A stretch of 64,000 nt of DNA, from contig DATKZF010000003.1 of NCBI GenBank assembly GCA_035528115.1, forward strand, positions 423,089-487,088, in the 5' to 3' direction. Positions 1,904 through 61,790 of the stretch are shown here, piece by piece. The stretch is from Candidatus Bipolaricaulota bacterium. GTDB lineage: Bacteria; Patescibacteriota; Patescibacteriia; UBA11705; DATKZF01. A program made the position numbers and the translations under genes. Under the pieces are notes generated by a model that worked only from the letters and a program-made list of their open reading frames with translations, was not told the DNA's origin and did not search any database. Positions within the stretch are counted from its first letter, which is position 1; every line of letters begins with the position of its first letter.

Positions 1904-2026
1904 AGAGATTAGAAACTAGAAACTTGAAATTGGGGAATGGAAATTTGAAACCGGAAATTATCCGCCCGAGGCGGATCCGCCTTTGGCGGAGAAATTGGGG
2001 ATGGAGAAATCTATTCGGAAGAATTA

Positions 2027-2170
2027 GGAAAAGATCTCTCCGCTTCGGTCGAGATGACAACGATGGTTAATTAGGAAAAGATCTCTCCGCTTCGGTCGAG
2101 ATGACAACGATGGTTAATTAGGAAAAAATCTCTCCGCTTCGGCCTGCCCCGAGCAAGGTCGAGGGGTCGA
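2027..2170. repeat. Tandem direct repeat, 3 copies of a 42-bp unit (third copy carries a ~24-bp internal insertion)
   Basis: ttaggaaaagatctctccgcttcggtcgagatgacaacgatggttaa x2, then a variant with cctgccccgagcaaggtcgagggg inserted; each unit contains an atctc...gagat hairpin. The long variant is near-identical in reverse orientation at 51094-51155. Confidence 0.8.
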
Positions 2171-2279
2171 GATGACAACAGCGTCGGCCTTGTTTCTCTG
2201 TTTTCTGTCTCATGTTCTTTTGTTGCGTGTTTCATGATACATGCTTCATGAACATTATAACAAAAGCGGCTCAAGAGAG

Positions 2280-3731: not shown

Positions 3732-3835
3732 AGGGTTACAAATTATGAATAAATACAAATATTACAAATGGTTGCAAATTATTACAAATATCAAAATATC
3801 TTTTATTCGTAACTTATTTGTAGCATTCCTGCCTG

Positions 3836-3950
3836 CTCCTCGAGTCTGCCTTCGACGGCCCTGAGGGGCCGCTCAGGCCCTCGAAGGGAGCGACCTCGCC
3901 ACTCGGCCGTGAGCTCGTGGCCGAACGGGAGTCGAAGACCGGCAGGCAGG
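3836..3950. repeat. GC-rich palindromic insert bracketed by CCTGCCTGC...GCAGGCAGG (expanded member of the CCTGCCTGCCGGCAGGCAGG element family)
   Basis: cctgcctgctcctcgag...ccggcaggcagg with internal imperfect palindrome cttcgacggccctgagg/ggccgctcaggccctcgaag; sits between tig start and the antiporter gene stop. Confidence 0.55.
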
Positions 3951-4037
3951 TGTACGGATTTGTAAATTTGTAATCAATAAAAAATAATCGTTTATTCAGA
4001 TTATCATATAAATGAATGTTCATCAAGTCTTGGCCGT

Positions 4038-5000: not shown

Positions 5001-5265
5001 AATTGGTAACTAATAAAAAGTTTAAAAGGTGGTAGCTGGTAGCTTTTTAGGTAGCCACCTAACCAGGGGATTCATGATACGGGAATAGAGCCCCTTATTT
5101 GATTATAACATAAAAAATCCGGTCGCCGGGAGAGTCAGGTGAATTAACAACACGATCTGTTGTCGCCACTGTTTTTTTCTGCTAAAATAAGATATAGTTG
5201 AATATAGCTTGTAGTTTATTAGGTGGCGATATATTAACCTAACCTCTTAATTTTTATCTTTAAAT

Positions 5266-6060
5266 ATGCTAAAAGTGATTTTTATCGGAGATATCGTGGG
5301 GAAAATCGGCCGGCAAGCGGCCTTGAAAGCCATTGCCAAATGGAAAAAACAATATAAGCCCGACTTGATCGTGGCCAATGCCGAGAATTTGGCTCATGGC
5401 AAAGGCGTTACGGTTTCTATTTTGAATGAAATGCAACGAGGAGGCATTGATTTTTTCACCTCAGGCAACCATGTCTGGGATAAAAAAGAAGTCTATGATA
5501 TTTTCGCGGACCCGGCCGCGCCGATTATCCGGCCGGCCAATTATCCGGACATGGTGCCCGGCGATGGCTATCGCGTTTTGACGATCGGCAAGAAAAAAAT
5601 TATGATCGTCAATATTATCGGCCAAGTTTTTTTTAAGGAATATTTTGATTCGCCGTTTTTGACTTTCGATGAAATTTTGAAAGAAAAGCCGGCTGATGTT
5701 AAGATTATAATTGTCGATTTCCATGTAGAGGCCACAGCGGAAATCAAATGCATGGGCCATTATTTGGACGGGCAGGTAAGCGCGCTGCTCGGCACGCATA
5801 CCCATGTCGGGACTTGTGATTATCAGCTTTCGGACAAGGGCATGGCTTATGTCACTCAAGTCGGCATGGTCGGAGCCAAGGATTCGAGCTTGGGTTTGAA
5901 ATTCGAACCGCTTATAAAGAAGATGATCACACAATTACCCGCAGCTCACGAATTGCCGGAAAAAGGCATTGTCGAGGTTAACGCGATTTATCTGGAAATA
6001 AAAGAGGATGGCGTTGCCAGGAAAATTAAAAAATTATACGAAGAAATTGAAATTAAATGA
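5266..6060 (+). CDS. YmdB-like metallophosphoesterase (2',3'-cyclic-nucleotide phosphodiesterase family, TIGR00282-like)
   Basis: MLKVIFIGDIVGK...VANAENLAHGKG...FTSGNHVWDKKE...IIIVDFHVEATAEIKCMGHY...GTHTHV motifs of the YmdB family. Confidence 0.75.
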   Translation: MLKVIFIGDIVGKIGRQAALKAIAKWKKQYKPDLIVANAENLAHGKGVTVSILNEMQRGGIDFFTSGNHVWDKKEVYDIFADPAAPIIRPANYPDMVPGDGYRVLTIGKKKIMIVNIIGQVFFKEYFDSPFLTFDEILKEKPADVKIIIVDFHVEATAEIKCMGHYLDGQVSALLGTHTHVGTCDYQLSDKGMAYVTQVGMVGAKDSSLGLKFEPLIKKMITQLPAAHELPEKGIVEVNAIYLEIKEDGVARKIKKLYEEIEIK

Positions 6061-6062
6061 AT

Positions 6063-6150
6063 ATACAAGATTACAGATTTGTGTACAGATTATACGAGAT
6101 AATTTCCAATCTGTATGATCTTGTATGTAAATCTCGTAATCTTGTAACTT
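6063..6150. promoter_or_regulatory. TACRAGAT word array (4 forward then 4 reverse-complement copies) immediately upstream of hup
   Basis: tacaagat, tacagat, gtacagat, tacgagat followed by atctgta, atcttgta, atctcgta, atcttgta; ends 9 nt before the hup ATG. Confidence 0.45.
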
Positions 6151-15284: not shown

Positions 15285-15372
15285 AGATTACAAGATTACG
15301 AGATTTGCATACGAGATTATACAGATTAACCCGATCTCGTACAATCTGTACACCAATCTGTAATCTCGTAAA
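15285..15372. promoter_or_regulatory. TACRAGAT word array (4 forward then 4 reverse copies) upstream of tsaD
   Basis: tacaagat, tacgagat, tacgagat, tacagat then atctcgta, atctgta, atctgta, atctcgta; ends 9 nt before the tsaD ATG. Confidence 0.45.
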
Positions 15373-15380
15373 TCCAATTT

Positions 15381-16397
15381 ATGAAGATATTAGCCATTGA
15401 AACCTCCTGCGATGAGACCGCGGCTTCAGTCGTTGAAATAAAAAACGGCAAATTCGCGGCTTTGTCCAATACGGTTTCATCTCAAATAAAAACTCACGCC
15501 AAATACGGCGGCGTTATTCCGGAAGTCGCCGGTCGTCTTCATATTGGAAAAATAATTCCGGTGATCGATGAAGCGTTGAGTTCCTCAAAAACGAAAATTG
15601 CCGAATTGAAAGCTTTGGCCGTGGTGTCGGGACCGGGCTTGGCGCCGTCTCTTCGAGTGGGCGTGGAAACGGCCAAAGCTTTGGCTTATGTCTGGCAAAA
15701 GCCGCTGATATCGGTCAATCATTTGGAAGGCCATATCGCGGCCGGTCTTTTTGAAAATAAAAAAGTTGCCATGCCCGCGGTTTGCTTGATCGCGTCCGGC
15801 GGCCATACTTCTTTGATTTATATAAAAAGCTGGGGCGGGTACGAAACAATCGGCCAAACCAGAGACGACGCGGCCGGAGAAGCCTTTGATAAGGTCGCGA
15901 AAATCATGGGACTTGGTTATCCGGGAGGCCCGCTGATTTCCAAATTGGCGGAAAATGGAAAAACCGGCCGATTCAAACTGCCTAGGCCGATGATTGATTC
16001 CGGCGATTTTGACTTTAGCTTTTCCGGTTTGAAAACAGCGGCTCTTTATTTGTATAAATCCAGAAAAACTTGGACTAAAAAAGACAAGGCTGACTTGGCC
16101 GCGGAATTTCAAGACGCGGTGATTGAAGTTTTGGTGGAAAAATCAATGAGCGCCGCGGAAAAATTAAAAGCCAAAAGTTTTATTTTGGGCGGTGGCGTTT
16201 CCGCCAACAAAAAATTGAGAGCAACGCTCAAGCGAGCCGGCCAAGACATCAAGGGCTTGAGCGTTTTTATTCCGCCTTTTGAATTCACCACTGACAACGC
16301 GGCCATGATCGGCGCGGCCGCGTATTTTCATTATAAAAATAAAAATTTTGTTGATCCGTTTGATTTGGTTGCGGAGCCACGATGGAGATTGATTTAA
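15381..16397 (+). CDS. tsaD: tRNA N6-adenosine threonylcarbamoyltransferase TsaD (Kae1/Gcp)
   Basis: 338 aa; MKILAIETSCDETAASV N-terminus, HLEGH metal-binding motif, GGGVSANKKL. Confidence 0.9.
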   Translation: MKILAIETSCDETAASVVEIKNGKFAALSNTVSSQIKTHAKYGGVIPEVAGRLHIGKIIPVIDEALSSSKTKIAELKALAVVSGPGLAPSLRVGVETAKALAYVWQKPLISVNHLEGHIAAGLFENKKVAMPAVCLIASGGHTSLIYIKSWGGYETIGQTRDDAAGEAFDKVAKIMGLGYPGGPLISKLAENGKTGRFKLPRPMIDSGDFDFSFSGLKTAALYLYKSRKTWTKKDKADLAAEFQDAVIEVLVEKSMSAAEKLKAKSFILGGGVSANKKLRATLKRAGQDIKGLSVFIPPFEFTTDNAAMIGAAAYFHYKNKNFVDPFDLVAEPRWRLI

Positions 16398-25985: not shown

Positions 25986-27644
<1,659 letters not shown>

Positions 27645-27697
27645 TTATGATTAAATTTAGTTACCAATGGTTACGAATTTACAAATTGGACAAATAC

Positions 27698-27982: not shown

Positions 27983-27991
27983 ATTTTGAAG

Positions 27992-28066
27992 CTACAAGAT
28001 GTACAAGATTTATATACAAGATATTACGAGATTACAAGATTTAGTATTTTGTACTATCTCGTACGC
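27992..28066. promoter_or_regulatory. TACRAGAT word array upstream of groES; no CIRCE element detected
   Basis: tacaagat x3, tacgagat, tacaagat then atctcgta. The HrcA operator consensus TTAGCACTC-N9-GAGTGCTAA is absent from 27983-28195. Confidence 0.4.
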
Positions 28067-28195
28067 GGATCCGGCACATCTAGGAGCAGTTAAAAAAGAT
28101 TATTTAATCTTATAACTTTATCAGCACCAATGTCAATAGCTTGAAATATCGCGGAAAATAAAAAAAGTCTTTATTTTAAAGCTTTTTGAGTTAAA

Positions 28196-33280: not shown

Positions 33281-33370
33281 AATAATGCGATGCGAATGAC
33301 GCGAATTACATGCGAATTATGCTAATTAAGCAAATATTCGCATCATTCGCATTATTCGTATATTAGCATC
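33281..33370. promoter_or_regulatory. GCGAATGA / TCATTCGC word array ending in ATTAGCATCGA, immediately upstream of ssb
   Basis: gcgaatgacgcgaattacatgcgaattatgctaattaagcaaatattcgcatcattcgcattattcgtatattagcatcgataat-ATG; paralogous array upstream of efp (34235-34320) ends in the same ttagcatcgaatt-ATG. Confidence 0.45.
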
Positions 33371-33829: not shown

Positions 33830-34001
33830 TCGTTACAAATTTACGAATTTCGTACACCTGCCTGCCGGCAGGCAGGAATATTACAAATGGTTACGAATTA
33901 TTTTCAGCACGGATTTGTTATGAACGTTTTCTAATTTGTACCATTATTATGATATTGTACTATCCTGTATGCGAATCTCGTACATCTCGTAACCAATAAT
34001 T

Positions 34002-34890: not shown

Positions 34891-34976
34891 GTCATGGAGC
34901 ATGAAACATGAATCATGGATCAAATGAAATAGCCGTGTCAGGCAGGCCAAACAATATCTAAATTAATTTTTTTAAG

Positions 34977-35065
34977 TAAATAAAAAATCGCCACTGCTTT
35001 TATGAGATCCCTGCCTGCCTGCCGGCAGGCAGGCTTCCGCGAGGATGACAATGAGGTGGTGATTT
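34977..35065. repeat. Composite palindromic terminator element (A-tract / stem / CCTGCCTGCCGGCAGGCAGG / GATGACA box / stem / T-tract) between convergent efp and SH3b gene
   Basis: aaaaaatcgccac...ccctgcctgcctgccggcaggcagg...gaggatgacaatgag gtggtgattttttg. Confidence 0.6.
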
Positions 35066-35079
35066 TTTGTTTGTTCAAT

Positions 35080-36833: not shown

Positions 36834-37065
36834 GTGTATGATAAATTTTCAGTGTTCGGTTCAAAAATCACAAAATGACGTTGTTATTATAGCAATATCA
36901 AAACATCTAGTCAATATGCCCAAAGTCGGCAAATTACTTGAAAAATTTCAATAAATCAGTTAGAATGAGTAAGAACTAATTATCATGAAACATGAATCAT
37001 GGATCATGAATCATTGATCAAGGCGAATTGATACATGATATGTGATACATGACACGTGAAAAAAT

Positions 37066-39398: not shown

Positions 39399-39511
39399 GG
39401 GTTACGAATTACGAATTTTGTACGAATGTTACAAATGGTTACTAATAAGGTAGATATGAAAAAAGCGTTCCGAAAGGGGCGCTTTTTGAGTTGTGATTTA
39501 TCGCCAAGCGG

Positions 39512-41069: not shown

Positions 41070-41084
41070 AAATTTTATATAAAA

Positions 41085-41150
41085 AAACCGTCACCGCTGC
41101 CTGCCGGCAGAATTTCTCGGGAATGACAGACAGGTGATGGCTTTTTGCTT
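41085..41150. repeat. Composite palindromic terminator element (family member)
   Basis: aaaaaaaccgtcaccgCTGCCTGCCGGCAGaatttctcGGGAATGACAGACAGGTGatggctttttg. Confidence 0.6.
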
Positions 41151-42384: not shown

Positions 42385-42470
42385 AAAAAAACCGCCACTG
42401 CTTTGAGATTCCCGCCTGCCTGCCGGCAGGCTTTCGCGGGAATGACAGACAGGTGTGGCGGTTTTTTATT
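42385..42470. repeat. Composite palindromic terminator element (best-preserved copy) between convergent rSAM gene and rny
   Basis: aaaaaaaccgccac tgctttgagattcccg CCTGCCTGCCGGCAGGC tttcgcGGGAATGACAGACAGGTG tggcggtttttt; outer stem accgccac/gtggcggt, inner stem ttcccgc/gcgggaa, central palindrome. Confidence 0.65.
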
Positions 42471-42520
42471 GAAGCTAATTGTTTCATGATCCATGATTCA
42501 TGTTCCATGCTCCATGACGT

Positions 42521-45516: not shown

Positions 45517-45729
45517 GTAAATGTCTCCTTTCAAATATAAGATGGTAATAGTTTAGCAGATTTTTAGGGGGTGTCAAGAAGGGCTGTTTTGAGGCAAAGG
45601 AGGTAGCTTGTAGCTTGTTAGCTTATTAGGTGAAATTAAAGCATAAAGCCACCTACAAGCTCACTCCAAATATTTACTTTCTTGAAAAAATATGATAAAT
45701 TAAACCCAGTTAATTCACTCAAAGATTTT

Positions 45730-49636: not shown

Positions 49637-50605
49637 TTATACCACGCGCCAATGTCCGTCTTCTTTGATTATTTTTCCGTCCAAGGTGAATCCCGATGCG
49701 CGTCTGTGTCCGCCGCCGCCGAGGGCCATGGCCAATTTGGAAACGTCGATATTGTCTTTGGTCGTGCGGATACTGCCTTTTATTTTTCCCTCCCCGGTTT
49801 CTCTCAAAACAACTATGATGTTCGGCTGATACAAATTCATCAGGAAATTGGCAATGCCGTTGACCGAGTCATCATCGACGAAGTTGTCCGCCAAATCCTT
49901 TTCGGTAACGGCCGCGAAAGCGATTTTATATTTTTCATTGTATTTCAAACCGGAAAAGACCCTGCCCCAAAATTTTAAAGTCTTGAAGTTTTTGTTTTTC
50001 CATAAACTTTGCAAGGCCGCTTTTATTCTGGCGCCTCGGCTCATTAATTCCGAGGAAATTTCCATGCTCGCTTGCGTGGTGGCCGCGTTGGAAAAAAAGG
50101 TGGTGTCCGAGATAATGCCGGTCAAAAGCGAATTGAGCGATCCTTTGTCCAGCTTGATTAGATTGTTTTTAAATAATCGATAAACGATTTCGGAAGTGGA
50201 GGAGCTTTCGGGTTTAACGATATTGATATCGCCGTAATTGTTATTGGTGAAATGATGATCGATATTTATCAAAGTCGAGGTTTTGTCCCTGTTCATTATT
50301 AAATCGGCAATGCCGGTTTGTTTGATTTCCCCGCAATCAAGACAAACAATGGTTTGGAATTTGTTTAATTCGTTTTCAAGAATCGAATTGATTAAAACCA
50401 GTCGTGTTTCCTTCAATGACTCGGGCGTCAAATCCGCGCAAAAGCAGACGACGTTTTTTTTCTTTGTTTGGCAGTGATAAAAAAAAGCCGCGGCCGCACC
50501 GATGGTGTCCGCGTCAGGATTTCTATGACAGACGATTAAAACATCTCGGCTTTCGTCAATCTTGTCCAAAATTTTCTTTTCCAGTATTTTCATCTTTGAT
50601 TTCAT
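49637..50605 (-). CDS. nrnA: DHH-family phosphoesterase (NrnA-like nanoRNase / pAp phosphatase)
   Basis: DHH motifs LIVCHRNPDADTIGAAAAF and NIDHHFTNN; DHHA1-like C-terminus GGGHRRASGF. Start trimmed to MKSKMKILEKK. Confidence 0.7.
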   Translation of the reverse strand: MKSKMKILEKKILDKIDESRDVLIVCHRNPDADTIGAAAAFFYHCQTKKKNVVCFCADLTPESLKETRLVLINSILENELNKFQTIVCLDCGEIKQTGIADLIMNRDKTSTLINIDHHFTNNNYGDINIVKPESSSTSEIVYRLFKNNLIKLDKGSLNSLLTGIISDTTFFSNAATTQASMEISSELMSRGARIKAALQSLWKNKNFKTLKFWGRVFSGLKYNEKYKIAFAAVTEKDLADNFVDDDSVNGIANFLMNLYQPNIIVVLRETGEGKIKGSIRTTKDNIDVSKLAMALGGGGHRRASGFTLDGKIIKEDGHWRVV

Positions 50606-50921
50606 TAAGAATTTCTTCGATTTCCCGCGCCTTTTTTTCCGTTTTTTCGAAAACAAAACGCAATTTGGGGATTTTTCGAAACCTTGTTCCCTTGGCCAGC
50701 CATTTTTTAATTTCCCCGCTTCTTAAAATGAGGAATTTTTTGGCTTCATTTTCCTTGGAGTCCGGCAAAACGCTGAAATGGATTTTTGCGCTTTCCAGGT
50801 CGGGGGAACTGTCAACATTAGCAATGGTAATCAAAAAGTCAAGCGGGGCGTCAAGGCGCCTGGAGATGATTTCCGCGATTTCTTGGCTTAAAAGACTGTC
50901 CAATTTTTCTTTTCGATGCAT
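50556..50921 (-). CDS. rbfA: Ribosome-binding factor A
   Basis: 121 aa; KH-like RbfA signature ISRRLDAPLDFLITIANVDSSPDLESAKIHFSV. Confidence 0.8.
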   Translation of the reverse strand: MHRKEKLDSLLSQEIAEIISRRLDAPLDFLITIANVDSSPDLESAKIHFSVLPDSKENEAKKFLILRSGEIKKWLAKGTRFRKIPKLRFVFEKTEKKAREIEEILNEIKDENTGKENFGQD

Positions 50922-51055
50922 ATTTTCAGGGGTTGGTTAATATCGTTGATTTATAATAGCATTATTTCATATAAAGATAAAGGCGGGTTTTTTTTAGGTT
51001 GTTAGGTTTTTAGGGAGGTAGGTTCTTAGTATCTTGTTGGCCTTTCTAATAACCT

Positions 51056-51340
51056 AAAAACCTACAAGCTACCACCGCCTATTGCCTCTCCGGCCACCCA
51101 TCGTTGTCATCTCGACCCCTCGACTTCGCTCGGGGCATGCCGTAGTGGAGAGATCCCTTTTTGTAATCAATGAGGGATTTCTCCATTCCGCCCTTCGGGG
51201 CTCCCTGCCTACCCTGCCTGCCGGCAGGCAGGCGGCAGGCAGGCGGGAATCCACAAAGCAGCGGTAGAATCATAAGCGGCGGCTTAAATCCACCTAATAA
51301 GCTAATAAGCTACAAGCTACTACGCCTATTGCCTCTCCTC
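51056..51340. mobile_element. MITE-like non-coding insert (about 215 bp) flanked by about 30-bp direct repeats
   Basis: Direct repeats ctacaagctaccaccgcctattgcctctcc (51060-51090) and ctacaagctactacgcctattgcctctcc (51310-51340). The intervening sequence contains the reverse copy of the 2111-2170 unit (ccatcgttgtcatctcgacccctcgacttcgctcggggcatgccgtagtggagagatc) and ccctgcctgccggcaggcaggcggcaggcagg. Confidence 0.5.
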
Positions 51341-51364
51341 ATCGCCCATGATAAGTTTATATAT

Positions 51365-52669
51365 ATGAAGTCTCTAATAAAAAAATTCATTCCCAAAAGC
51401 GTTTTATCGCTTTACCACAAATTTTTGGCGATTGTGGCGCGTTTTGCGTTCGGCAATCCTTCTGAAAAAATGATTGTCATCGGCGTGACCGGCACGAACG
51501 GCAAGTCATCGACCGTAAAATTGATCGCCAAGGCCCTGGCGAGCGAAGGCGCCAAAGTCGGTTACACCTCCACTTCGGAATTTCAAATCGGCGACAAAGA
51601 ATGGCTCAACAAAACGAAAATGACCATGCTCGGCCGTTTTCAATTGCAAAAACTTTTGAAAAAAATGGTTGACGCGGGTTGCCGATACGCGGTGGTGGAA
51701 GTTTCTTCGCAAGGCGTGGAGCAATTTCGCCATTTTGGCATTAATTTCGATTACGCTATTTTTACGAATTTAACTCCGGAGCACATCGAAGCTCATGGAG
51801 GTTTTGAAAATTACAAAAAAGCCAAAGGCAAATTTTTCAAATTCCTGACTTTGCGGCCGCGAAAGAAAATTAACGGTCAAGAAATCAAAAAAGTCATGGT
51901 CGTCAATCGAGACGACGAGCACTCCGATTATTTCCTGTCTTTTCCGGCTGACAAAAAATTGATTTTCAGCGCCCAAGACAAATTAAGCGACGTTTTTGCG
52001 GAAAATATTAAAGTCTCGACTTTGGGCACCTCGTTTTCCGTTAAAGGCCTTGAAATAAATTTGCGTTTGCTGGGCAAGTTCAATGTTTACAACAGTTTGC
52101 CCGCGATCGCCATCGGTTTGAACGAAGGACTTGATTTGGAAAAAATAAAAGCCGCGCTCGAGGCCGCGAAAGTCATTCCCGGACGCATGGAATTGATAGA
52201 TGAGGGTCAGCCGTTTTCGGTCATTGTCGATTACGCGCCCGAGCCGTACAGCTTGGCGAAATTATATGAGACGCTTGATTTGATGCAAAAAAATAAATTG
52301 ATTCACGTCTTGGGTTCGTGCGGGGGCGGACGCGATGTGGCCCGTCGGCCGATTTTGGGCAAGATGGCCGGCGAAAAGGCGGACATTGTCATTGTCACCA
52401 ATGAAGATCCGTACGATGATGATCCTCAAAAAATAATTGATGAAGTGGCGGCCGGCGCGATCGGGGTTGGGAAAAAATTGAATGAAAATCTTTTTAAGAT
52501 ATTGGACAGAAAAGAAGCCATTGCCAAGGCCATGAATTTGGCCGGCGCCGGGGATTTGGTGGTTTTGACCGGCAAGGGTTCGGAGCAGGCGATTGTGGTG
52601 AAGAACAATAAGAAGATGCCGTGGGATGAGAGGGAGGCGGCGAGGGAGGTTTTGAGGAGGCGGTGTTAA
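51365..52669 (+). CDS. Mur ligase family protein (MurE/MurF-like UDP-N-acetylmuramoyl-peptide ligase)
   Basis: VIGVTGTNGKSST P-loop, DYAIFTNLTPEHIEAHGGFENYKKAKGKFF, C-terminal Mur_ligase_C. ATG 51365 preferred over the track start 51170, which reads through the MITE-like element. Confidence 0.8.
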   Translation: MKSLIKKFIPKSVLSLYHKFLAIVARFAFGNPSEKMIVIGVTGTNGKSSTVKLIAKALASEGAKVGYTSTSEFQIGDKEWLNKTKMTMLGRFQLQKLLKKMVDAGCRYAVVEVSSQGVEQFRHFGINFDYAIFTNLTPEHIEAHGGFENYKKAKGKFFKFLTLRPRKKINGQEIKKVMVVNRDDEHSDYFLSFPADKKLIFSAQDKLSDVFAENIKVSTLGTSFSVKGLEINLRLLGKFNVYNSLPAIAIGLNEGLDLEKIKAALEAAKVIPGRMELIDEGQPFSVIVDYAPEPYSLAKLYETLDLMQKNKLIHVLGSCGGGRDVARRPILGKMAGEKADIVIVTNEDPYDDDPQKIIDEVAAGAIGVGKKLNENLFKILDRKEAIAKAMNLAGAGDLVVLTGKGSEQAIVVKNNKKMPWDEREAAREVLRRRC

Positions 52670-54839: not shown

Positions 54840-54885
54840 TGGACTTGTTAAAATTGATAAGTACCGGATATAGCGACAAGATAAC

Positions 54886-54962
54886 TACGCAAAGAAGAAC
54901 AATAAAAAGATGCCGTGGGATGAGAGGGAGGTGGCGAGGGAGTGTTTGAGGAGGCGGGGGAA
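54886..54962 (+). repeat. Degenerate copy 2 of the Mur-ligase 3' terminus (att-like remnant)
   Basis: aagaacaataaaaagatgccgtgggatgagagggaggtggcgagggagtgtttgaggaggcggggg versus native 52600-52665. Confidence 0.7.
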
Positions 54963-55615: not shown

Positions 55616-55715
55616 ATGGAAGGCGCGGAGCAGGCGATTGTGGTTAAGAATAATAAAAAGATGCCGTGGGATGAGAGGGAGGCGGCGAGGGAGGTTTTGA
55701 GGAAAATCAACAAAT
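55616..55715 (+). repeat. Degenerate copy 3 of the Mur-ligase 3' terminus (about 85 bp, att-like remnant)
   Basis: ggagcaggcgattgtggttaagaataataaaaagatgccgtgggatgagagggaggcggcgagggaggttttgagg versus native 52572-52660. Confidence 0.7.
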
Positions 55716-55769: not shown

Positions 55770-58631
55770 ATGACAGGAAATTTTAAAATAGAAATCAGAC
55801 ATTTAGTTAAAAATTTTAAAGAGCAAGATGGTCAGAGACGGTCTGAAGAAGATATCCAAACCAGCTTTACTATTAAATTAATGGAGGTTCTCGGCTGGGA
55901 CAGCTCTCATTGGGCAATAAATACCGGTCAGGACGTAAAAACAGGCAAAAAGCCTGATATTGTTTTAAAATCAGGATCTTCAAAATTGATAGTTATCGAA
56001 TCAAAAGATGCCAAGAAAAAAGATATGCTTGACGGCTCATACGGCAACAAAACTTTTAAGCAGCAACTATTTAATTATTGCAAAGCGGAAGGGGTGGCCT
56101 GGGGTATTTTGACTAATTTTATTGAATGGCGATTGTACAGTGTTCATCATAGTCGATTATACAAAGAGAAGAAATATGCTTTTTACGATTTGTTATGGCC
56201 TAACGCAGATAAGAGCAGTTACGTGGATTTATTGTCCGATGAGGGGATGCAATTTCTAAATTTAATTTCAAAAGAAAATTTAATTAAAAAGAATGGAATT
56301 ATTGATCCTGATCCGATATATTATCCTGAACAGCTAGATATAGAGCAAGAAAAAATAAAAAAAGAATTTTTCAGCAAGATAAAAAATTGGCGCGAGAATT
56401 TACGAAAATTTATAAATAAAAATTATTCTAAATATACCCTTGAGGAAGTTGATTTAATGGCGCAGAAGATATTAGATCGAATGATTTTTATTGATATTTG
56501 TCATGATAAGGGCATTGTTTATGAAAATCATCTTCGTGCAATATTATCTTCAAAATTGCCCAAGTACGAAGAGTTGAAGGAGAAATTTAAGGTAATGAAC
56601 GAGAAGTTCAACACTGAGCTTTTTGCTCAAAATACTATTGATGAAATTAAAATTAGCAACGATGTAATAATCCCTATTATAGAAGAATTAGACGAAATCG
56701 ATTTTAGCAAACTTAGTGTTCACATTATTGGGGAAGTATATGAAAATTATCTGGGAGAGATAGCCAAGGGGAACGTGAAGAAAGAAGATGTAATGAAGGC
56801 AAAACAAAAAAATAAACGAAAATCGCAAGGTATATACTATACTCCTGATTACATTGTTGATTATATTGTCAAAAAGACAGTGGGTGAATTGTTGAAAAAA
56901 GCTAAAACAAAAGAGGATATAGAGAAAATTAGAGTTTTGGACCCTGCTTGCGGTTCGGGTTCGTTTTTAATTCGTGCTTTTGATGAGTTTTTTGAGGCAT
57001 ACAAGAGAGTAATGAAGGAAGGTGGGCTTTTAGGTTTTGAAATAAAGAAAAAAATATTGCAAAACAACCTTTTCGGCGTTGATTTAGATCCCAAAGCTGT
57101 GGAAATCGCCAAGCTAAACCTAATGATTAAGGCGCTTGAAGGCGCGACGCCAAACGAATTAAGAGGCGATCATTTGCTACCTAACTTGAATCTAAATATT
57201 CGTTGTGGCAATTCCTTGATTGGAGGGGAGAAGTTAAAAGAAAAGGAAAATAATTTGAATCTGTTTGACAAGTTTGACGATGAAATAAAAAAATTAATTG
57301 ATTTTAAGGAGCGGTTTCGTAAATCCATCTCTAATGATGAAAAAAAAGAAATTCTGAACGAAATTAATATATTTGAGGGATACATTAATAAAGAAGTAAA
57401 TGATAGCCTGTATAAATATTTCAAGAATTTGAATAGAATTAGGCCATTCAATTACACAATCGCTTTTTGTGAAATATTCAAAGACGGTGGATTTGATGCG
57501 GTGATTGGAAATCCGCCATATATTAGACCACATAGAATTGACACAAGTATAAAAGGATATTTATGGGAAAATTATTATTCATTCAAGGCAAAATCCGATA
57601 TCTACGTATGTTTCATTGAAAATGCAATACAACTCACGAAAAAAGGCGGACTAATTTCATATATAGTTTCAAACACATGGCTATCATTAGAGAGTTTCGA
57701 AAATCTACGAACTTTCATCCTAAACAATACAAAAATAAAAATGTTGATTAACCCTCCAGCAAAGGTTTTTAGTGGAGCGCAAGTGTCGACGATTGTTTTT
57801 GTTTTTGAAAAAGATGAATCTAAGGGAAATAAAATAATTGTAGGGGGATTATCTCAAAACGCATTCAAACTCGAGGGTGCAATAAAACAAACGCTGTTCA
57901 ATAAAACACACAAAAAAGTTTTCGATTTATCTTTACTAGATAAACAGGTTTTTTCAATAAAGGTTGCAACGACCCCGTTAAAAAAAGTCGCGAAATTTTA
58001 CTATGGAATAAAAACCGGAGATGATGAGAAATTTTTGACTTTCAAACCCAAAGATAAAAATAATTATAAACAACTTTTAAGAAGAAGTGATTTTAATCGA
58101 TATCTAATAGATTACAAAGGTGAGTATGTTTGGTACGCACCAGAATTAATGAAAGAAAATAAAGCCACCGCTCGGCCAGGAGAACCAAAAAGATTCGATG
58201 AAACAAAAATTATTATAACTGACATTGCAAAAAAAATAATTGCGACATTGGATTTACGACATTATTATATTAAAGATGCCTTAATCCTTCATCAAATAAA
58301 AAATGGTTATGATTTAAGGTATTTATTAGGTGTTATAAATTCAAAATTATTAAATTTTATCTACACCAAGACATTTAGAAATTTGAGCGTAGCTAAAAAC
58401 GCTTTTATGCAATTGCCAATTAAGATAATAGAGATTAGTGAAGAAAAAGCTTTGTATAACACAATTGTTCGCTTGGTAGACCAATTGCTTAAATTAAATA
58501 AGACTACAGAATCCCGCGAAATAAACAAAACAAAAATCCAGGCGCTGGATTATGAAATTGATAAGATGGTGTATAAGCTTTATGGGTTGGGGGAGTCTGA
58601 GATAAAAACAATTGAACAAGCTGTAAAATAA
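55770..58631 (+). CDS. Type IIG restriction-modification enzyme (MmeI/Eco57I-like: N-terminal PD-ExK nuclease, gamma-class N6-adenine methyltransferase, C-terminal TRD)
   Basis: 953 aa; nuclease motif KPDIVL...IVIESKD; MTase motif I VLDPACGSGSFLI and motif IV IGNPPYI. Confidence 0.8.
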   Translation: MTGNFKIEIRHLVKNFKEQDGQRRSEEDIQTSFTIKLMEVLGWDSSHWAINTGQDVKTGKKPDIVLKSGSSKLIVIESKDAKKKDMLDGSYGNKTFKQQLFNYCKAEGVAWGILTNFIEWRLYSVHHSRLYKEKKYAFYDLLWPNADKSSYVDLLSDEGMQFLNLISKENLIKKNGIIDPDPIYYPEQLDIEQEKIKKEFFSKIKNWRENLRKFINKNYSKYTLEEVDLMAQKILDRMIFIDICHDKGIVYENHLRAILSSKLPKYEELKEKFKVMNEKFNTELFAQNTIDEIKISNDVIIPIIEELDEIDFSKLSVHIIGEVYENYLGEIAKGNVKKEDVMKAKQKNKRKSQGIYYTPDYIVDYIVKKTVGELLKKAKTKEDIEKIRVLDPACGSGSFLIRAFDEFFEAYKRVMKEGGLLGFEIKKKILQNNLFGVDLDPKAVEIAKLNLMIKALEGATPNELRGDHLLPNLNLNIRCGNSLIGGEKLKEKENNLNLFDKFDDEIKKLIDFKERFRKSISNDEKKEILNEINIFEGYINKEVNDSLYKYFKNLNRIRPFNYTIAFCEIFKDGGFDAVIGNPPYIRPHRIDTSIKGYLWENYYSFKAKSDIYVCFIENAIQLTKKGGLISYIVSNTWLSLESFENLRTFILNNTKIKMLINPPAKVFSGAQVSTIVFVFEKDESKGNKIIVGGLSQNAFKLEGAIKQTLFNKTHKKVFDLSLLDKQVFSIKVATTPLKKVAKFYYGIKTGDDEKFLTFKPKDKNNYKQLLRRSDFNRYLIDYKGEYVWYAPELMKENKATARPGEPKRFDETKIIITDIAKKIIATLDLRHYYIKDALILHQIKNGYDLRYLLGVINSKLLNFIYTKTFRNLSVAKNAFMQLPIKIIEISEEKALYNTIVRLVDQLLKLNKTTESREINKTKIQALDYEIDKMVYKLYGLGESEIKTIEQAVK

Positions 58632-60343: not shown

Positions 60344-60375
60344 ATCATTCAAGGAGATGCACAATATTTTTGTTA

Positions 60376-60462
60376 TTTATCGCCTAAAATGGTCGGTTTG
60401 AATCCTATGTATTAGTTTGCACTAGCTAAAAAACCTCAATGTTTGCCGCCAAAAACATCCAC
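60376..60462 (+). repeat. 87-bp direct repeat, copy A (upstream of rhuM-fic)
   Basis: ttatttatcgcctaaaatggtcggtttgaatcctatgtattagtttgcactagctaaaaaacctcaatgtttgccgccaaaaacat, followed by terminator-like ccccgccccgcgcgggagattttttt (60463-60487). Confidence 0.7.
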
Positions 60463-60567: not shown

Positions 60568-61557
60568 ATGAAACAAAAAAATCATTCAAAGGGCGAAATA
60601 ATGATTTATACAACCTCGAAAAACGAGGTGGAGTTGAAGGTTCATTTTAAAAATGAATCTGTTTGGCTTGGACAAAGTGAAATTGCGTTGCTGTTTGGCA
60701 GAGAACGATCGGTTATCACCAAGCATATCAATAAGATTTTTTCTGATAAAGAAGTTGATAAAGCAAGCAATGTGCAAAAAATGCACATTGCAAATTCTGA
60801 TAAACCCGTGGAATTTTACAGCCTAGATGTAATTTTAGCCGTGGGTTACCGCGCGAATTCACCCCGCGCCATCCATTTTCGCCATTGGGCCACGAAAATC
60901 TTGAAACAATATTTAATCAAGGGTTACGCCATAAACGAAAAACGTCTGCTGGAAGCTCAAAATAAATTCAAAGAACTTCAAGAAACGGTTTTATTTTTGC
61001 AAAAACATTCAAAAAAGGAATTGTTGAAAGGACAAGAAGCGGAAATTTTAAATTTACTTGCCGATTACTCAAAAACACTTTCATTGCTTGGACAATACGA
61101 TAACGGAAAACTGGCGGAAAAGAAAGGCAAAAGGACGAAATTTATTCTGCGATACAACGATTGCTCCAATATAGCGGTTAAACTTAAAGACGGACTTATC
61201 GCCAAAAAAGAGGCCGGCGACTTGTTCGGGCATGAACGGGGAGGAAGCTTTGAAGGTATTATCTCCGGGTTGTATCAGTCTTTCGCGAGAAAGGAGCTGT
61301 ATCCCGCGATTGAAGACAAAGCGTCTCATTTGCTTTACTTAATGATCAAAGACCATCCCTTTTTTGACGGCAATAAAAGAATCGCTTCGTTTTTATTTGT
61401 TTATTTTCTGGACAGGTCAAATTATCTTTTCAAAAAATCCGGCGAGCGAAAAATCAATGACAACGCGTTGACGGCGCTGGCGCTGCTTATTGCCGAAAGC
61501 GCTCCAAAAGATAAAGAGACAATGATTAAAATTATTAAAAATTTAATTGGCGAATAA
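60568..61557 (+). CDS. RhuM-like N-terminal domain fused to Fic/Doc-family domain
   Basis: N-terminal KGEIMIYTTSKNEVELKVHFKNESVWLGQSEIALLFGRERSVITKHI (RhuM virulence-protein family); C-terminal HPFFDGNKRIASFLF matches the Fic core motif HxFx(D/E)GNxR. Confidence 0.75.
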   Translation: MKQKNHSKGEIMIYTTSKNEVELKVHFKNESVWLGQSEIALLFGRERSVITKHINKIFSDKEVDKASNVQKMHIANSDKPVEFYSLDVILAVGYRANSPRAIHFRHWATKILKQYLIKGYAINEKRLLEAQNKFKELQETVLFLQKHSKKELLKGQEAEILNLLADYSKTLSLLGQYDNGKLAEKKGKRTKFILRYNDCSNIAVKLKDGLIAKKEAGDLFGHERGGSFEGIISGLYQSFARKELYPAIEDKASHLLYLMIKDHPFFDGNKRIASFLFVYFLDRSNYLFKKSGERKINDNALTALALLIAESAPKDKETMIKIIKNLIGE

Positions 61558-61579: not shown

Positions 61580-61607
61580 CTCCCGCCTCCGCGCGGGAGT
61601 TTTTTTT
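61580..61607 (+). terminator. Rho-independent terminator after rhuM-fic
   Basis: ctcccgcctccgcgcgggagtttttttt. Confidence 0.6.
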
Positions 61608-61681
61608 GTTATTTACCGCCTAAAATGCTCGATTTGAATCCAAAGTATTAGTTTGCATTAGCTAAAAAACCTCAATACCTC
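61595..61681 (+). repeat. 87-bp direct repeat, copy B (downstream of rhuM-fic, upstream of rpoB promoter)
   Basis: ttatttaccgcctaaaatgctcgatttgaatccaaagtattagtttgcattagctaaaaaacctcaatacctcccgccaaaaacat; about 85% identical to copy A. Confidence 0.7.
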
Positions 61682-61790
61682 CCGCCAAAAACATTTGTCA
61701 AATTTTTTGTGGATAAGGTGGGAGTTGGCGATCGGAGGAGGGCGGAAATTAGTCTAAATTTAGCTAAATGCAGTGGCCTGCGCCTTGCCC

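What the first reader, a model, noticed from the sequence alone, without database searches (positions are those of the whole stretch)
51056..51340. MITE-like insertion with about 30-bp flanking direct repeats upstream of the Mur ligase gene
ctacaagctaccaccgcctattgcctctcc is duplicated (one mismatch) 250 bp apart. The intervening non-coding DNA is assembled from two dispersed elements seen elsewhere in the window: the reverse copy of the long 2111-2170 unit, and a triplicated CCTGCC...GGCAGG palindrome. This is the signature of a non-autonomous mobile insertion with a target-site duplication. The element also contributes a spurious N-terminal extension to the ligase ORF (track start 51170).
Basis: seen in the sequence. 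Interest (0 to 1): 0.55.

Follow-up and report, generated by a model that had tools for sequence, protein, structure and literature searches.

The report
REP-type hairpin repeats between duplicated promoter-upstream DNA
The flanking repeat is real, but the DNA between it is an ordinary cluster of small GC-rich hairpin repeats (REP type, already described in other bacteria) in the spacer between two diverging genes of a tiny-genome bacterium, not a miniature transposon with a 30-bp target duplication.

Summary
A direct repeat (51046-51091 / 51294-51338; 46 nt, 41 identities, one indel) brackets 202 bp of GC-rich non-coding DNA between divergent rbfA and a Mur ligase gene. The ORF start at 51170 is a spurious extension; the true start is 51365.

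The MITE-plus-target-duplication reading is not supported:
- The interior has no terminal inverted repeats.
- It does not recur as a unit in the 73 kb of this genome I could read.
- Its modules occur elsewhere in the window separately, without flanking repeats.
- No transposase is encoded in the window.

The interior is two hairpin units that fit the published CGTC/TGTC-tagged REP superfamily (Di Nocera 2013). One has a nested CCTGCC...GGCAGG palindrome in its loop. Related units occur in more than 120 metagenome contigs of 27-72% GC.

The flanking repeat belongs to an AT-rich, 8-nt-period family found next to promoters. The left 27 nt of the second copy match a copy 5.7 kb away better than they match the first copy. 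Only the right 16-mer is private to the pair, so a local duplication of unknown mechanism is still likely.

Relatives (at most 74% identical ligase) lack the GC-rich insert. No empty site could be found. Low to moderate interest.

The parts
50556..50921 (-). rbfA (ribosome-binding factor A), the left flanking gene, transcribed away from the feature
   Evidence: Pfam RBFA, E = 5.5e-20. Same gene call in the public contigs.
50979..51018 (+). Inverted, degenerate member of the same AT-rich word family (TTAGGTTG x4.5). It forms the left arm of an imperfect palindrome whose right arm is DR1, and lies just upstream of the putative rbfA promoter (TGcTATTAT on the minus strand, about 50958-50966).
   Evidence: 50981-51018 vs 51080-51041, 75% over 40 columns. 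I2 and I3. DNA fold z = -3.3, 0 of 200 shuffles fold as well. TRF period 8. The promoter assignment is inferred from the sequence and from relatives.
51046..51091 (+). DR1, first copy of the flanking direct repeat: 8-nt-period words CTAATAAC CTAAAAAC CTACAAG CTAC, then CACCGCCTATTGCCTCTCC. No -10 element follows it.
51105..51159 (+). A 24-nt nested hairpin insert (CCCTCGACTTCGCTCGGGGCATGC) distinguishes this long form from the short form at 2034-2058 and 2081-2105.
   Evidence: 84-90% to 2128-2179 reverse complement. (pattern scan: 10 hits vs 2.6 expected). (more than 120 metagenome stretches). (stem covariation). (published definition of CGTC/TGTC-tagged REPs).
51147..51184 (+). Central 12-bp hairpin GGAGAGATCCCT / AGGGATTTCTCC with a 14-nt loop. 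It joins the 3' half of unit 1 to an inverted half-unit (AGATTTCTC-type).
   Evidence: I1. (present in the minimum-energy folds of both strands). Metagenome copies show the same ...GGAGAGATC-loop-AGATTTCTC... arrangement.
51181..51253 (+). REP unit 2: tag-like CTCC, stem ATTCCGCC...GGCGGGAAT (dRS3-like ATTCC...GGAAT core), tail CCA. Its loop is replaced by GCCCTTCGGGGC plus the CCTGCC palindrome.
   Evidence: Sequence. Folds. 51204-51264 matches the reverse complement of the terminator-embedded unit at 42395-42453 (75% over 61 nt) and 34991-35024. Tail and AT-first stem as.
51204..51243 (.). Nested GC-rich palindrome CCTGCCTAC CCTGCCTGCC|GGCAGGCAGG CGGCAGGCAGG. The 20-nt perfect core is 51213-51232.
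   Evidence: (D2). The same core stands alone at 33857-33876. It also forms the two ends of a 125-nt GC-rich element at 3824-3951, which has a 92% copy at L134:16326-16452.
51255..51293 (+). Spacer AAAGCAGCGG...TTAAATCCAC. Its first 10 nt are shared with the terminator-embedded units (AAAGCAGYGG). Its last 10 nt are shared with the family copy at 45630-45639.
   Evidence: 51204-51264 vs 42453-42395; 51284-51335 vs 45639-45591.
51294..51338 (+). DR2, second copy of the direct repeat. Probably the native upstream region of the ligase promoter, containing a possible -35 (TTGCCT, 51329-51334).
   Evidence: The GCTACA(A/G)GCTAC word is also present upstream of the ligase gene in relative L004.
51349..51357 (+). 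Putative extended -10 of the ligase promoter (TGATAAGTT). It lies outside the repeat, 7 nt before the start codon.
   Evidence: TGATA is conserved at the same place in L004, L009 and L006 (TGATACACT). Function is inferred, not shown.
51365..52669 (+). Mur ligase (MurE-like) gene with its true start. 51170-51364 is a spurious ORF extension.
   Evidence: Pfam Mur_ligase_M and Mur_ligase_C. N-terminal alignment. Public gene call of 434 aa.

Best explanation
The 285-bp feature is not one mobile element. It is a BIME-like patch of two small GC-rich hairpin repeats of the CGTC/TGTC-tagged REP type, with further GC-rich palindromes nested in their loops. It sits in the 443-bp spacer between the divergent rbfA and Mur-ligase promoters of a Patescibacteria (CPR) genome.

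The flanking 'direct repeats' are two members of an AT-rich family of degenerate 8-nt tandem words plus a CGCCT-TTGCCT box. In this genome that family lies next to promoters.
- DR2 is the native upstream region of the ligase promoter.
- DR1 is the right arm of a word palindrome facing the rbfA promoter.

The two copies share a private exact 16-mer. They are therefore probably related by a local duplication or gene conversion that accompanied or followed arrival of the GC-rich DNA. The mechanism is unresolved (inferred).

The hairpin units spread by a mechanism that recognises a conserved tag plus hairpin. The metagenome copies show tag conservation and stem covariation. Elsewhere in this window such units leave no long duplications.

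Here the patch most likely has no dedicated function. At most it acts as a strong bidirectional hairpin block between the two promoters. Its one demonstrable effect is to open a false 65-codon extension of the ligase ORF.
For: Shown:
- Units fit the published CGTC-REP description: an unpaired CGTC/TGTC/CCTC tag, a stem whose first two pairs are A-T, and a short tail near CCA. Unit 1 is TGTC|ATCTC...GAGAT|CCC (51105-51159). Unit 2 is CTCC|ATTCCGCC...GGCGGGAAT|CCA (51181-51253).
The base before GTCAT is T in 94 and C in 44 of 147 copies.
- Variants not selected by the search pattern covary: TTC with GAAAT 59%, TCC with GGAAT 36%, CCC with GGGAT 35%, CCT with AGGAT 35%. Mismatched combinations mostly reach 0-15%, at most 19%.
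- Half of 140 units have an inverted partner within 150 nt, against a 7% background.
- The window holds 7-8 such units, all extragenic. Three are embedded in terminator-like hairpins after genes, at about 34985-35070, 41080-41145 and 42395-42470.
- The interior folds into hairpins on both strands (z = -5.0 and -4.0).
- The interior has no terminal inverted repeats.
- No other GC island has flanking repeats.
- The composite is unique in 73 kb of this genome.
- The direct repeat belongs to a family, and DR1 pairs with 50981-51018.
- Relatives lack GC-rich DNA at this locus but have the same word style and the same TGATA -10 upstream of the ligase gene.
- No transposase was found in the window.
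- No Rfam family matches.
Against: - DR1 and DR2 share an exact 16-mer found nowhere else in the window. Their overall identity (89%) is as high as that of the interior modules to their paralogues. A duplication created at the time of insertion therefore cannot be excluded.
- Unit 1 carries a 24-nt insert and unit 2 about a 50-nt insert, so neither has the canonical 8-9 bp stem and 4-5 nt loop of CGTC REPs.
- Unit 2's tag (CTCC) is only near the published CCTC variant.
- Published REPs lie mostly downstream of genes, between convergent or co-directional ORFs. This patch lies between divergent genes.
- Only 73 kb of a genome of about 0.6-0.76 Mb could be examined.
- No relative closer than 74% ligase identity exists in the databases searched, so there is no empty-site comparison.
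- Promoter assignments are sequence inferences only.
Confidence: 0.62

Rival explanations
1. A single non-autonomous transposon (MITE) of about 200-250 bp inserted upstream of the ligase gene and duplicated 30-46 bp of target DNA.
For: - Real direct repeats bracket the GC-rich DNA, including an exact 16-mer unique to the pair.
- The GC-rich DNA is absent from relatives.
- The interior consists of dispersed repeats.
Against: - No terminal inverted repeats.
- The composite is not repeated.
- Other copies of the same modules lack flanking repeats.
- The duplicated sequence is a member of a dispersed family. Copy 2 is closer in its left 27 nt to a copy 5.7 kb away than to copy 1.
- From general knowledge, 46 bp is far longer than the 2-14 bp duplications made by known bacterial transposases, and hairpin-type REP and IS200/IS605 elements make none.
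- No transposase in the window.
Confidence: 0.08
2. Recombination product. A DNA segment carrying the GC-rich patch next to one member of the promoter word family was brought in by homologous (Campbell-type or ectopic) recombination or gene conversion between family members. The two repeats are then the recombination joints rather than a transposase footprint. A variant of this reading: an HD-domain gene that relatives carry between rbfA and the ligase gene was deleted, leaving its promoter-side word element (DR1) and repeat-laden terminator region (X).
For: - The family has at least 3-5 members in 64 kb, with mosaic similarity. DR2 resembles the 45603-45629 copy on the left and DR1 on the right.
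- Three of the four nearest relatives carry an HD gene with its own terminator between rbfA and the ligase gene; the window and L007 do not.
- Elsewhere in the window such REP units sit in terminators.
Against: - No remnant of the HD gene in the window (tblastn).
- No donor locus with the same interior was found.
- The relatives' HD and ligase promoters do not share a repeat.
- The scenario is not directly testable with the sequence available.
Confidence: 0.2
3. Functional RNA or regulatory element. The interior is transcribed, either from a DR1-borne promoter as a small RNA or as a long structured leader of the ligase mRNA. Alternatively it serves as a bidirectional terminator or insulator between the divergent promoters.
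For: - Strong predicted structure on both strands (z = -5.0 and -4.0).
- DR1 duplicates the possible -35 box of the ligase promoter.
- Related units sit in terminator positions elsewhere in the window.
- The published view is that many REPs are transcribed and act as RNA elements.
Against: - DR1 is not followed by the conserved TGATA -10; at the right spacing there is only TGTCAT.
- No T-run follows the palindrome.
- No Rfam match beyond generic hairpin noise.
- The whole interior is made of dispersed repeats rather than a locus-specific conserved sequence.
- It is absent from relatives that have the same two genes.
Confidence: 0.1

Closest known systems
CGTC-tagged REPs (Di Nocera, De Gregorio & Rocco 2013, PMC3733652). 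The family includes Neisseria dRS3 and Rickettsia RPE-4/RPE-6.
   Same: - Unpaired 5' tag CGTC, often TGTC. Here it is TGTC, and YGTC in 138 of 147 metagenome copies.
- Stem whose first two pairs are A-T.
- Short C-rich tail. Unit 2 has CCA.
- Hairpin units that cluster, pair in inverted orientation, and lie in extragenic DNA, often behind genes.
- No dedicated transposase is known for them.
- Unit 2 and the terminator-embedded copies have the ATTCC...GGAAT core that I recall for dRS3 (own knowledge).
   Different: - Both units in the finding carry large nested inserts in place of the 4-5 nt loop.
- Unit 1's stem is 5 bp plus an interrupted extension rather than 8-9 bp.
- The tail of unit 1 is CCC, and most metagenome copies have CTN.
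- The host is a Patescibacteria/CPR genome, a phylum not among the five listed for CGTC repeats in that paper.
- The patch lies between divergent genes, whereas REPs are mostly downstream of ORFs.
BIMEs (bacterial interspersed mosaic elements) of enterobacteria
   Same: Intergenic mosaics in which REP hairpins in various orientations are combined with other short motifs. They are variable from locus to locus and are not one transposable unit.
   Different: BIMEs are built from GTAG-tagged REPs (PUs) with defined linker motifs and are linked to RAYT transposases. Here the tag is TGTC, the partners are GC-rich CCTGCC palindromes, and no RAYT was found.
REPINs mobilised by RAYT (Y1/IS200-like) transposases (PMC3337134, PMC3116915)
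   Same: Two hairpin repeats close together that can fold into a larger hairpin. They are non-autonomous, extragenic, and leave no target duplication. Half of the metagenome units have an inverted partner.
   Different: No GT[AG]G tag. Judged by tag and tail, the two units here point the same way rather than being an inverted doublet. No RAYT gene in the window. A Y1_Tnp gene (24.8 bits, cut-off 23) was seen only in a relative, L009:5354-5908.
MITEs (for example Correia elements of Neisseria, RUP and BOX of pneumococci)
   Same: Small, non-coding, dispersed, structured, often in promoter or terminator regions. BOX elements are likewise modular.
   Different: MITEs have terminal inverted repeats, a short duplication of fixed length, and many copies of the whole unit. 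None of these was found here.

Membership tests
MITE | Terminal inverted repeats at the two ends of the element | tested here: not met
   An inverted-repeat search of 51030-51350 with 6-nt seeds found only internal hairpins. Nothing pairs 51092-51115 with 51270-51293.
MITE | Short target-site duplication of family-specific length flanking each copy | tested here: not met
   The repeat here is 46 nt at 89% identity. The other 32 GC-rich non-coding islands, including all other copies of the same modules, have no comparable flanking repeat.
MITE | Multiple copies of the whole element with the same ends | tested here: not met
   BLAST of the intergenic region against the window, and of the interior against 9 kb more of the same genome, finds the modules only separately. 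The remaining roughly 530 kb of the contig could not be read.
MITE | A related autonomous element or transposase in the genome | tested here: inconclusive
   Pfam scans of the ORFs of 100 aa or more in the window found no transposase or integrase. The whole genome was not available.
CGTC-tagged REP superfamily | Unpaired terminal tag CGTC (variants TGTC, CCTC) | tested here: met
   Unit 1 has TGTC at 51105-51108. Short-form copies at 2034-2058 and 2081-2105 also have TGTC. In the metagenome copies the base before GTC is T in 94 and C in 44 of 147. Unit 2 has CTCC, which is only near CCTC. Definition.
CGTC-tagged REP superfamily | Stem whose first and second positions are complementary A-T pairs | tested here: met
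   ATCTC/GAGAT in unit 1 and ATTCCGCC/GGCGGGAAT in unit 2. AT-YYY/RRR-AT covaries in variants not selected by the search.
CGTC-tagged REP superfamily | Stem of 8-9 bp and loop of 4-5 nt | tested here: inconclusive
   Short-form copies (GTCATCTCGACCGAAGCGGAGAGAT) give about 7 pairs with an internal mismatch and a 5-nt loop. Both units in the finding have 24-nt and roughly 50-nt inserts instead of a small loop.
CGTC-tagged REP superfamily | Short unpaired 3' tail, mostly CCA | tested here: inconclusive
   Unit 2 has CCA (51251-51253) and unit 1 has CCC. Metagenome copies have C followed mostly by T (CTC 42, CTT 32, CTG 20, CTA 18, CCC 16).
CGTC-tagged REP superfamily | Many extragenic copies, mainly downstream of ORFs | tested here: inconclusive
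   The window has 7-8 units in 64 kb, all extragenic, against 2.6 +/- 1.4 pattern hits expected. Three are in terminator positions. The finding's copy lies between divergent genes. The genome-wide count is not available.
REPIN / RAYT system | GT[AG]G tag at the foot of the hairpin | tested here: not met
   The tag is TGTC or CTCC. Definition.
REPIN / RAYT system | Single-copy RAYT (Y1 transposase) gene flanked by the repeats | tested here: inconclusive
   None in the window. None next to 120 metagenome loci when searched with one Y1 query. A Y1_Tnp gene is present in relative L009 only. The whole genome was not testable.
Curated RNA families (Rfam 15) | Score at or above the family gathering threshold | tested here: not met
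   The window has only one tRNA hit. The region gives only sub-threshold microRNA-type hairpin noise. In 20 metagenome loci with more than 30 units, no hit falls on the units.

The most novel reading that the evidence does not exclude
CGTC/TGTC-tagged REP hairpins are actively proliferating and nesting into each other's loops and into terminators in a streamlined CPR genome of about 0.6-0.76 Mb that encodes no dedicated transposase. DR1-X-DR2 would then be a footprint of their insertion: a hairpin-induced replication template switch that copied about 46 bp of the promoter-upstream region and so rescued the promoter of the cell-wall ligase gene, presumably essential, after the insertion separated the upstream element from its -10. 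This would give a first mechanistic handle on how this transposase-less REP class moves. It would also link the insertion to the unusual 8-nt 'word palindrome' promoter architecture of these genomes.
Probability: 0.12. Interest if true: 0.6.

Novelty: new member of a known kind. Interest (0 to 1): 0.3.

Why it matters
For annotation, the ligase gene starts at 51365. The 65-codon extension, and any 'hypothetical protein' called across 51069-51273, are artefacts of repeat DNA.

For biology, the result extends a described but poorly understood class of tagged hairpin repeats (CGTC/TGTC REPs, with no known transposase) to a Patescibacteria genome. It also shows them nested in one another and in terminators.

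The single case of a long flanking duplication is worth a look in the complete genome and in the read data. If it recurs, it would bear on how these elements insert.

The more unusual feature is the genome-wide pattern of AT-rich 7-8-nt word arrays and word palindromes around promoters. It is shared in style, though not in sequence, with relatives.

Tried and rejected
- **Empty site or strain variants.** Look-ups of the exact RbfA and ligase proteins returned only the same strain. The nearest ligase relatives are 70-74% identical, and their intergenic DNA cannot be aligned to the interior.
- **More of the source genome.**
  - The genome-collection scan with the long-form 19-mer found only two unrelated MAGs, so the source genome is apparently not a species representative.
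  - One flank look-up added 9 kb. The other protein was not on record.
- **HD-gene remnant or Y1 transposase in the window.** tblastn found nothing below E = 0.7.
- **RAYT genes next to metagenome copies.** None with one query.
- **Rfam.** No family matches the units. A FopS sRNA hit in L045 is unrelated to the repeats and only marks that contig as Bacteroides-like.
- **BLAST of the interior against plasmids and phages.** One 26-nt chance-level hit and none, respectively.
- **Literature search by sequence words.** It returned only primer coincidences. A search combining CPR with REP or MITE terms returned no paper on both.
- **REPIN doublet reading.** I considered this for the two units and rejected it, because tag and tail orientation put both units on the + strand.
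- **DR1 as a functional duplicate of the ligase promoter.** I considered this and rejected it, because the conserved TGATA -10 lies outside the repeat and is absent after DR1.

Full report
**Setting.** The window (42% GC) comes from a 604-kb metagenome contig of a Patescibacteria/Parcubacteria-like bacterium (JGI 3300031565, Ga0307379_10000002). The finding lies in the 443-bp spacer between rbfA (50556-50921, minus strand) and a MurE-like Mur ligase gene on the plus strand. The ORF that opens at 51170 is in frame with the ligase. However, seven homologues of 59-78% identity all begin at MKSLIKK, which is window 51365, and the public gene call is 434 aa.

**The observation.** Its partner at 51310-51338 differs by one substitution and a 1-nt deletion, and the spacing is 247-248 bp. 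The repeat is longer than reported: 51046-51091 vs 51294-51338, 46 columns with 41 identities.
- The right-hand 16-mer, CGCCTATTGCCTCTCC, is exact and unique to the pair.
- The left 27 nt are a short tandem array with a period of 8 (CTAATAAG CTAATAAG CTACAAG CTAC).
- No shuffle reproduces such matches.
- Among 33 GC-rich non-coding islands in the window, only this one has a strong flanking repeat (z = 10.3).
51103-51170 is the reverse complement of 2114-2179 (84%). 51204-51243 is an imperfect palindrome whose perfect 20-nt core recurs at 33857 and 35014, and partly at 41097 and 42411.
- Two independent Logan assemblies reproduce 50922-51241 and break inside the palindrome. The left junction is therefore independently confirmed; the right one is not.

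**What the flanking repeat is.** It is a member of a dispersed family.
- The left 27 nt of DR2 and the copy at 45603-45629 (minus strand) both fit the 27-nt family pattern with no mismatch; they differ only at its one degenerate position. DR2 also shares ten further bases to the left with that copy. DR1 has three mismatches over the same 27 nt.
- Weaker members lie at 5028-5052 and 5205-5224.
- An inverted, degenerate member lies at 50979-51018, directly upstream of the rbfA promoter region. DR1 forms an imperfect palindrome with it (DNA fold z = -3.3).
- The three positions at which DR1 differs from DR2 in the word part (AACCTA vs AAGCTA words) make DR1 complementary to the TAGGTT words of that left arm.
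- In relatives, the DNA upstream of the ligase gene has the same style of words. L004 even shares GCTACAGGCTAC. All have an extended -10 of the form TGATA-NNNT a few bases before the start codon.
- In the window that box is 51349-51357, outside DR2, and nothing like it follows DR1.

I therefore read DR2 as the native promoter-upstream region of the ligase gene and DR1 as an extra family member without a -10. The private 16-mer still argues that the two copies are each other's closest relatives on the right side, so a local duplication or gene conversion is likely. The family membership shows that similarity alone is not evidence of a target-site duplication.

**What the interior is.** Unit 1 (51105-51159) reads TGTC | ATCTC GAC [24-nt nested hairpin] CGTAGTG GAGAT | CCC. 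Short forms without the nested hairpin stand in a 47-nt tandem array at 2022-2142.
- In those loci the base before GTCAT is T or C in 138 of 147 copies.
- Half of the units have an inverted partner ending in RRRATGAC within 150 nt, against a 7% background.
- Variants not fixed by my pattern show clear stem covariation: ATTTC with GAAAT, ATTCC with GGAAT, ATCCC with GGGAT, ATCCT with AGGAT.
- This matches the published CGTC-tagged REP superfamily: an unpaired tag CGTC, often TGTC or CCTC; a stem that almost invariably begins with two A-T pairs; a small loop; and a short tail near CCA. The superfamily is found in five phyla, includes Neisseria dRS3 and Rickettsia RPE-4/6, and has no dedicated transposase (PMC3733652).

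Unit 2 (51181-51253) reads CTCC | ATTCCGCC ... GGCGGGAAT | CCA. Its loop is replaced by GCCCTTCGGGGC and the CCTGCC palindrome. Its right half and the following AAAGCAGCGG match units embedded in terminator-like hairpins behind genes at about 34985-35070, 41080-41145 and 42395-42470.

The CCTGCCTGCC/GGCAGGCAGG core also stands alone at 33857. It also forms the two ends of a 125-nt GC-rich element at 3824-3951, which has a 92% copy 13 kb to the left of the window.

The interior is thus a nest of at least three kinds of small GC-rich palindromic repeats, comparable to a BIME. It folds into hairpins on both strands (z = -5.0 and -4.0). No Rfam family matches it or the metagenome units.

**Tests of the MITE reading.**
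- No terminal inverted repeats at the ends of the interior.
- No second copy of the composite in the window or in 9 kb more of the same genome.
- No flanking repeats at other copies of the modules.
- No transposase or integrase among the window's ORFs of 100 aa or more that were scanned.
- A 46-bp duplication is far outside what bacterial transposases produce, and hairpin-type REP or IS200-like elements produce none (general knowledge).
- In favour of an insertion of some kind: the four nearest relatives (ligase 70-74% identical) have AT-rich spacers (GC 0.20-0.38) without any such unit at this locus.
- Three of those relatives carry an HD-domain gene between rbfA and the ligase gene. The window and L007 do not, and no remnant of that gene is detectable.

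**Mechanism, as far as it can be stated.**
- Shown: the units carry a conserved tag and a covarying hairpin, cluster, nest, and sit in extragenic DNA.
- Inferred: they spread as single-stranded hairpins recognised by a host or foreign enzyme, as proposed for REPs. They landed in the spacer between two promoters. The DR1/DR2 pair arose by a local duplication or conversion within the promoter word family. The patch has no dedicated function beyond being a strong hairpin block.
- I give this reading 0.62. A recombination or gene-deletion origin of the arrangement gets 0.20, a functional RNA or insulator 0.10, and a true MITE with a long target duplication 0.08.

**Novelty and interest.** The element class is known. 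What is new is its presence, in nested form, in a CPR genome, and one unexplained long flanking duplication. Interest is low to moderate (0.3).

The decisive data are the rest of the contig, read-level variation across 51000-51400, closer relatives, and transcript ends.

Noticed in passing
window 52581-52658, 54875-54952, 55626-55703: The last 78 nt of the Mur ligase gene are repeated 3 kb downstream (96% identity) and partly once more in between. The repeats bracket a 716-aa ORF without a Pfam family and a 133-aa ORF. An Eco57I/MmeI-type restriction-modification gene (55770-58631) and a RhuM/Fic gene follow. In relatives, rpoB lies 0.4-2.5 kb after the ligase gene; here it is not within 11 kb. 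This looks like an island integrated at the 3' end of the ligase gene, with att-like duplications.
   Followed up: partly
window intergenic regions, e.g. 3754-3799, 3958-3973, 6052-6147, 15285-15382, 27630-27690, 27990-28070, 33290-33370, 33830-33902, 34892-34922, 36982-37059, 39402-39450, 42485-42517, 45599-45665, 50991-51064: Most intergenic regions carry degenerate tandem arrays of a locus-specific 7-8-nt word (CATGAAT, TACGAAT/TACAAAT, TACAAGAT/TACGAGAT, GCGAAT, TAGCTTG/TAGGTTG). An array of the complementary word often lies nearby, so that they form AT-rich 'word palindromes' around promoters. Relatives show the same style with different words, for example TTCTAAA/TTTAGAA in L006:3024-3303 and ACAGATA in L004:3850-3890. 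I know of no description of this.
   Followed up: partly
window 2022-2179: Tandem array of three TGTC-tagged REP units with a 47-nt period. Two copies are identical, spacer included, so it is not a CRISPR array. The third carries the 24-nt nested hairpin.
   Followed up: yes
window 34985-35070, 41080-41145, 42395-42470: Three terminator-like hairpins (AAAAAACCGCCAC ... GTGGCGGTTTTTT) behind genes. Each contains an embedded TGTC|ATTCCCGC...GCGGGAAT unit with the CCTGCC palindrome in its loop. These are either REP units nested inside terminators or a repeated 'mobile terminator' module.
   Followed up: partly
window 3824-3951 and L134:16326-16452: A 125-nt, 70%-GC element bounded by CCTGCCTGC and GGCAGGC(AGG). 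It has a 92% copy about 13 kb left of the window in the same genome, with no obvious target duplication. It is the most MITE-like repeat seen here. The free-standing 20-nt CCTGCC palindromes could be its two ends joined together.
   Followed up: partly
window 60367-60458 and 61603-61694: A 92-nt direct repeat (89% identity) flanks the RhuM/Fic-domain gene 60568-61557, so this is a gene cassette bracketed by long repeats.
   Followed up: no
L009:5354-5908 (relative, ligase 73% identical): An IS200-like Y1 transposase gene (Pfam Y1_Tnp 24.8 bits, cut-off 23) lies directly downstream of the ligase gene. It is a possible RAYT-type enzyme in this lineage. No counterpart exists in the window.
   Followed up: partly
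L045:11900-13000 (Bacteroides-like metagenome contig): Several TGTC/CGTC-tagged units, singly and as inverted pairs, appear to interrupt what looks like coding sequence. This resembles the in-gene REPs and RPEs described in the literature.
   Followed up: no
window, start codons throughout: Almost no gene has a Shine-Dalgarno-like sequence. Start codons are preceded by A/T-rich runs, and the ligase gene's putative -10 ends 7 nt before its ATG, which suggests a leaderless or near-leaderless mRNA.
   Followed up: no
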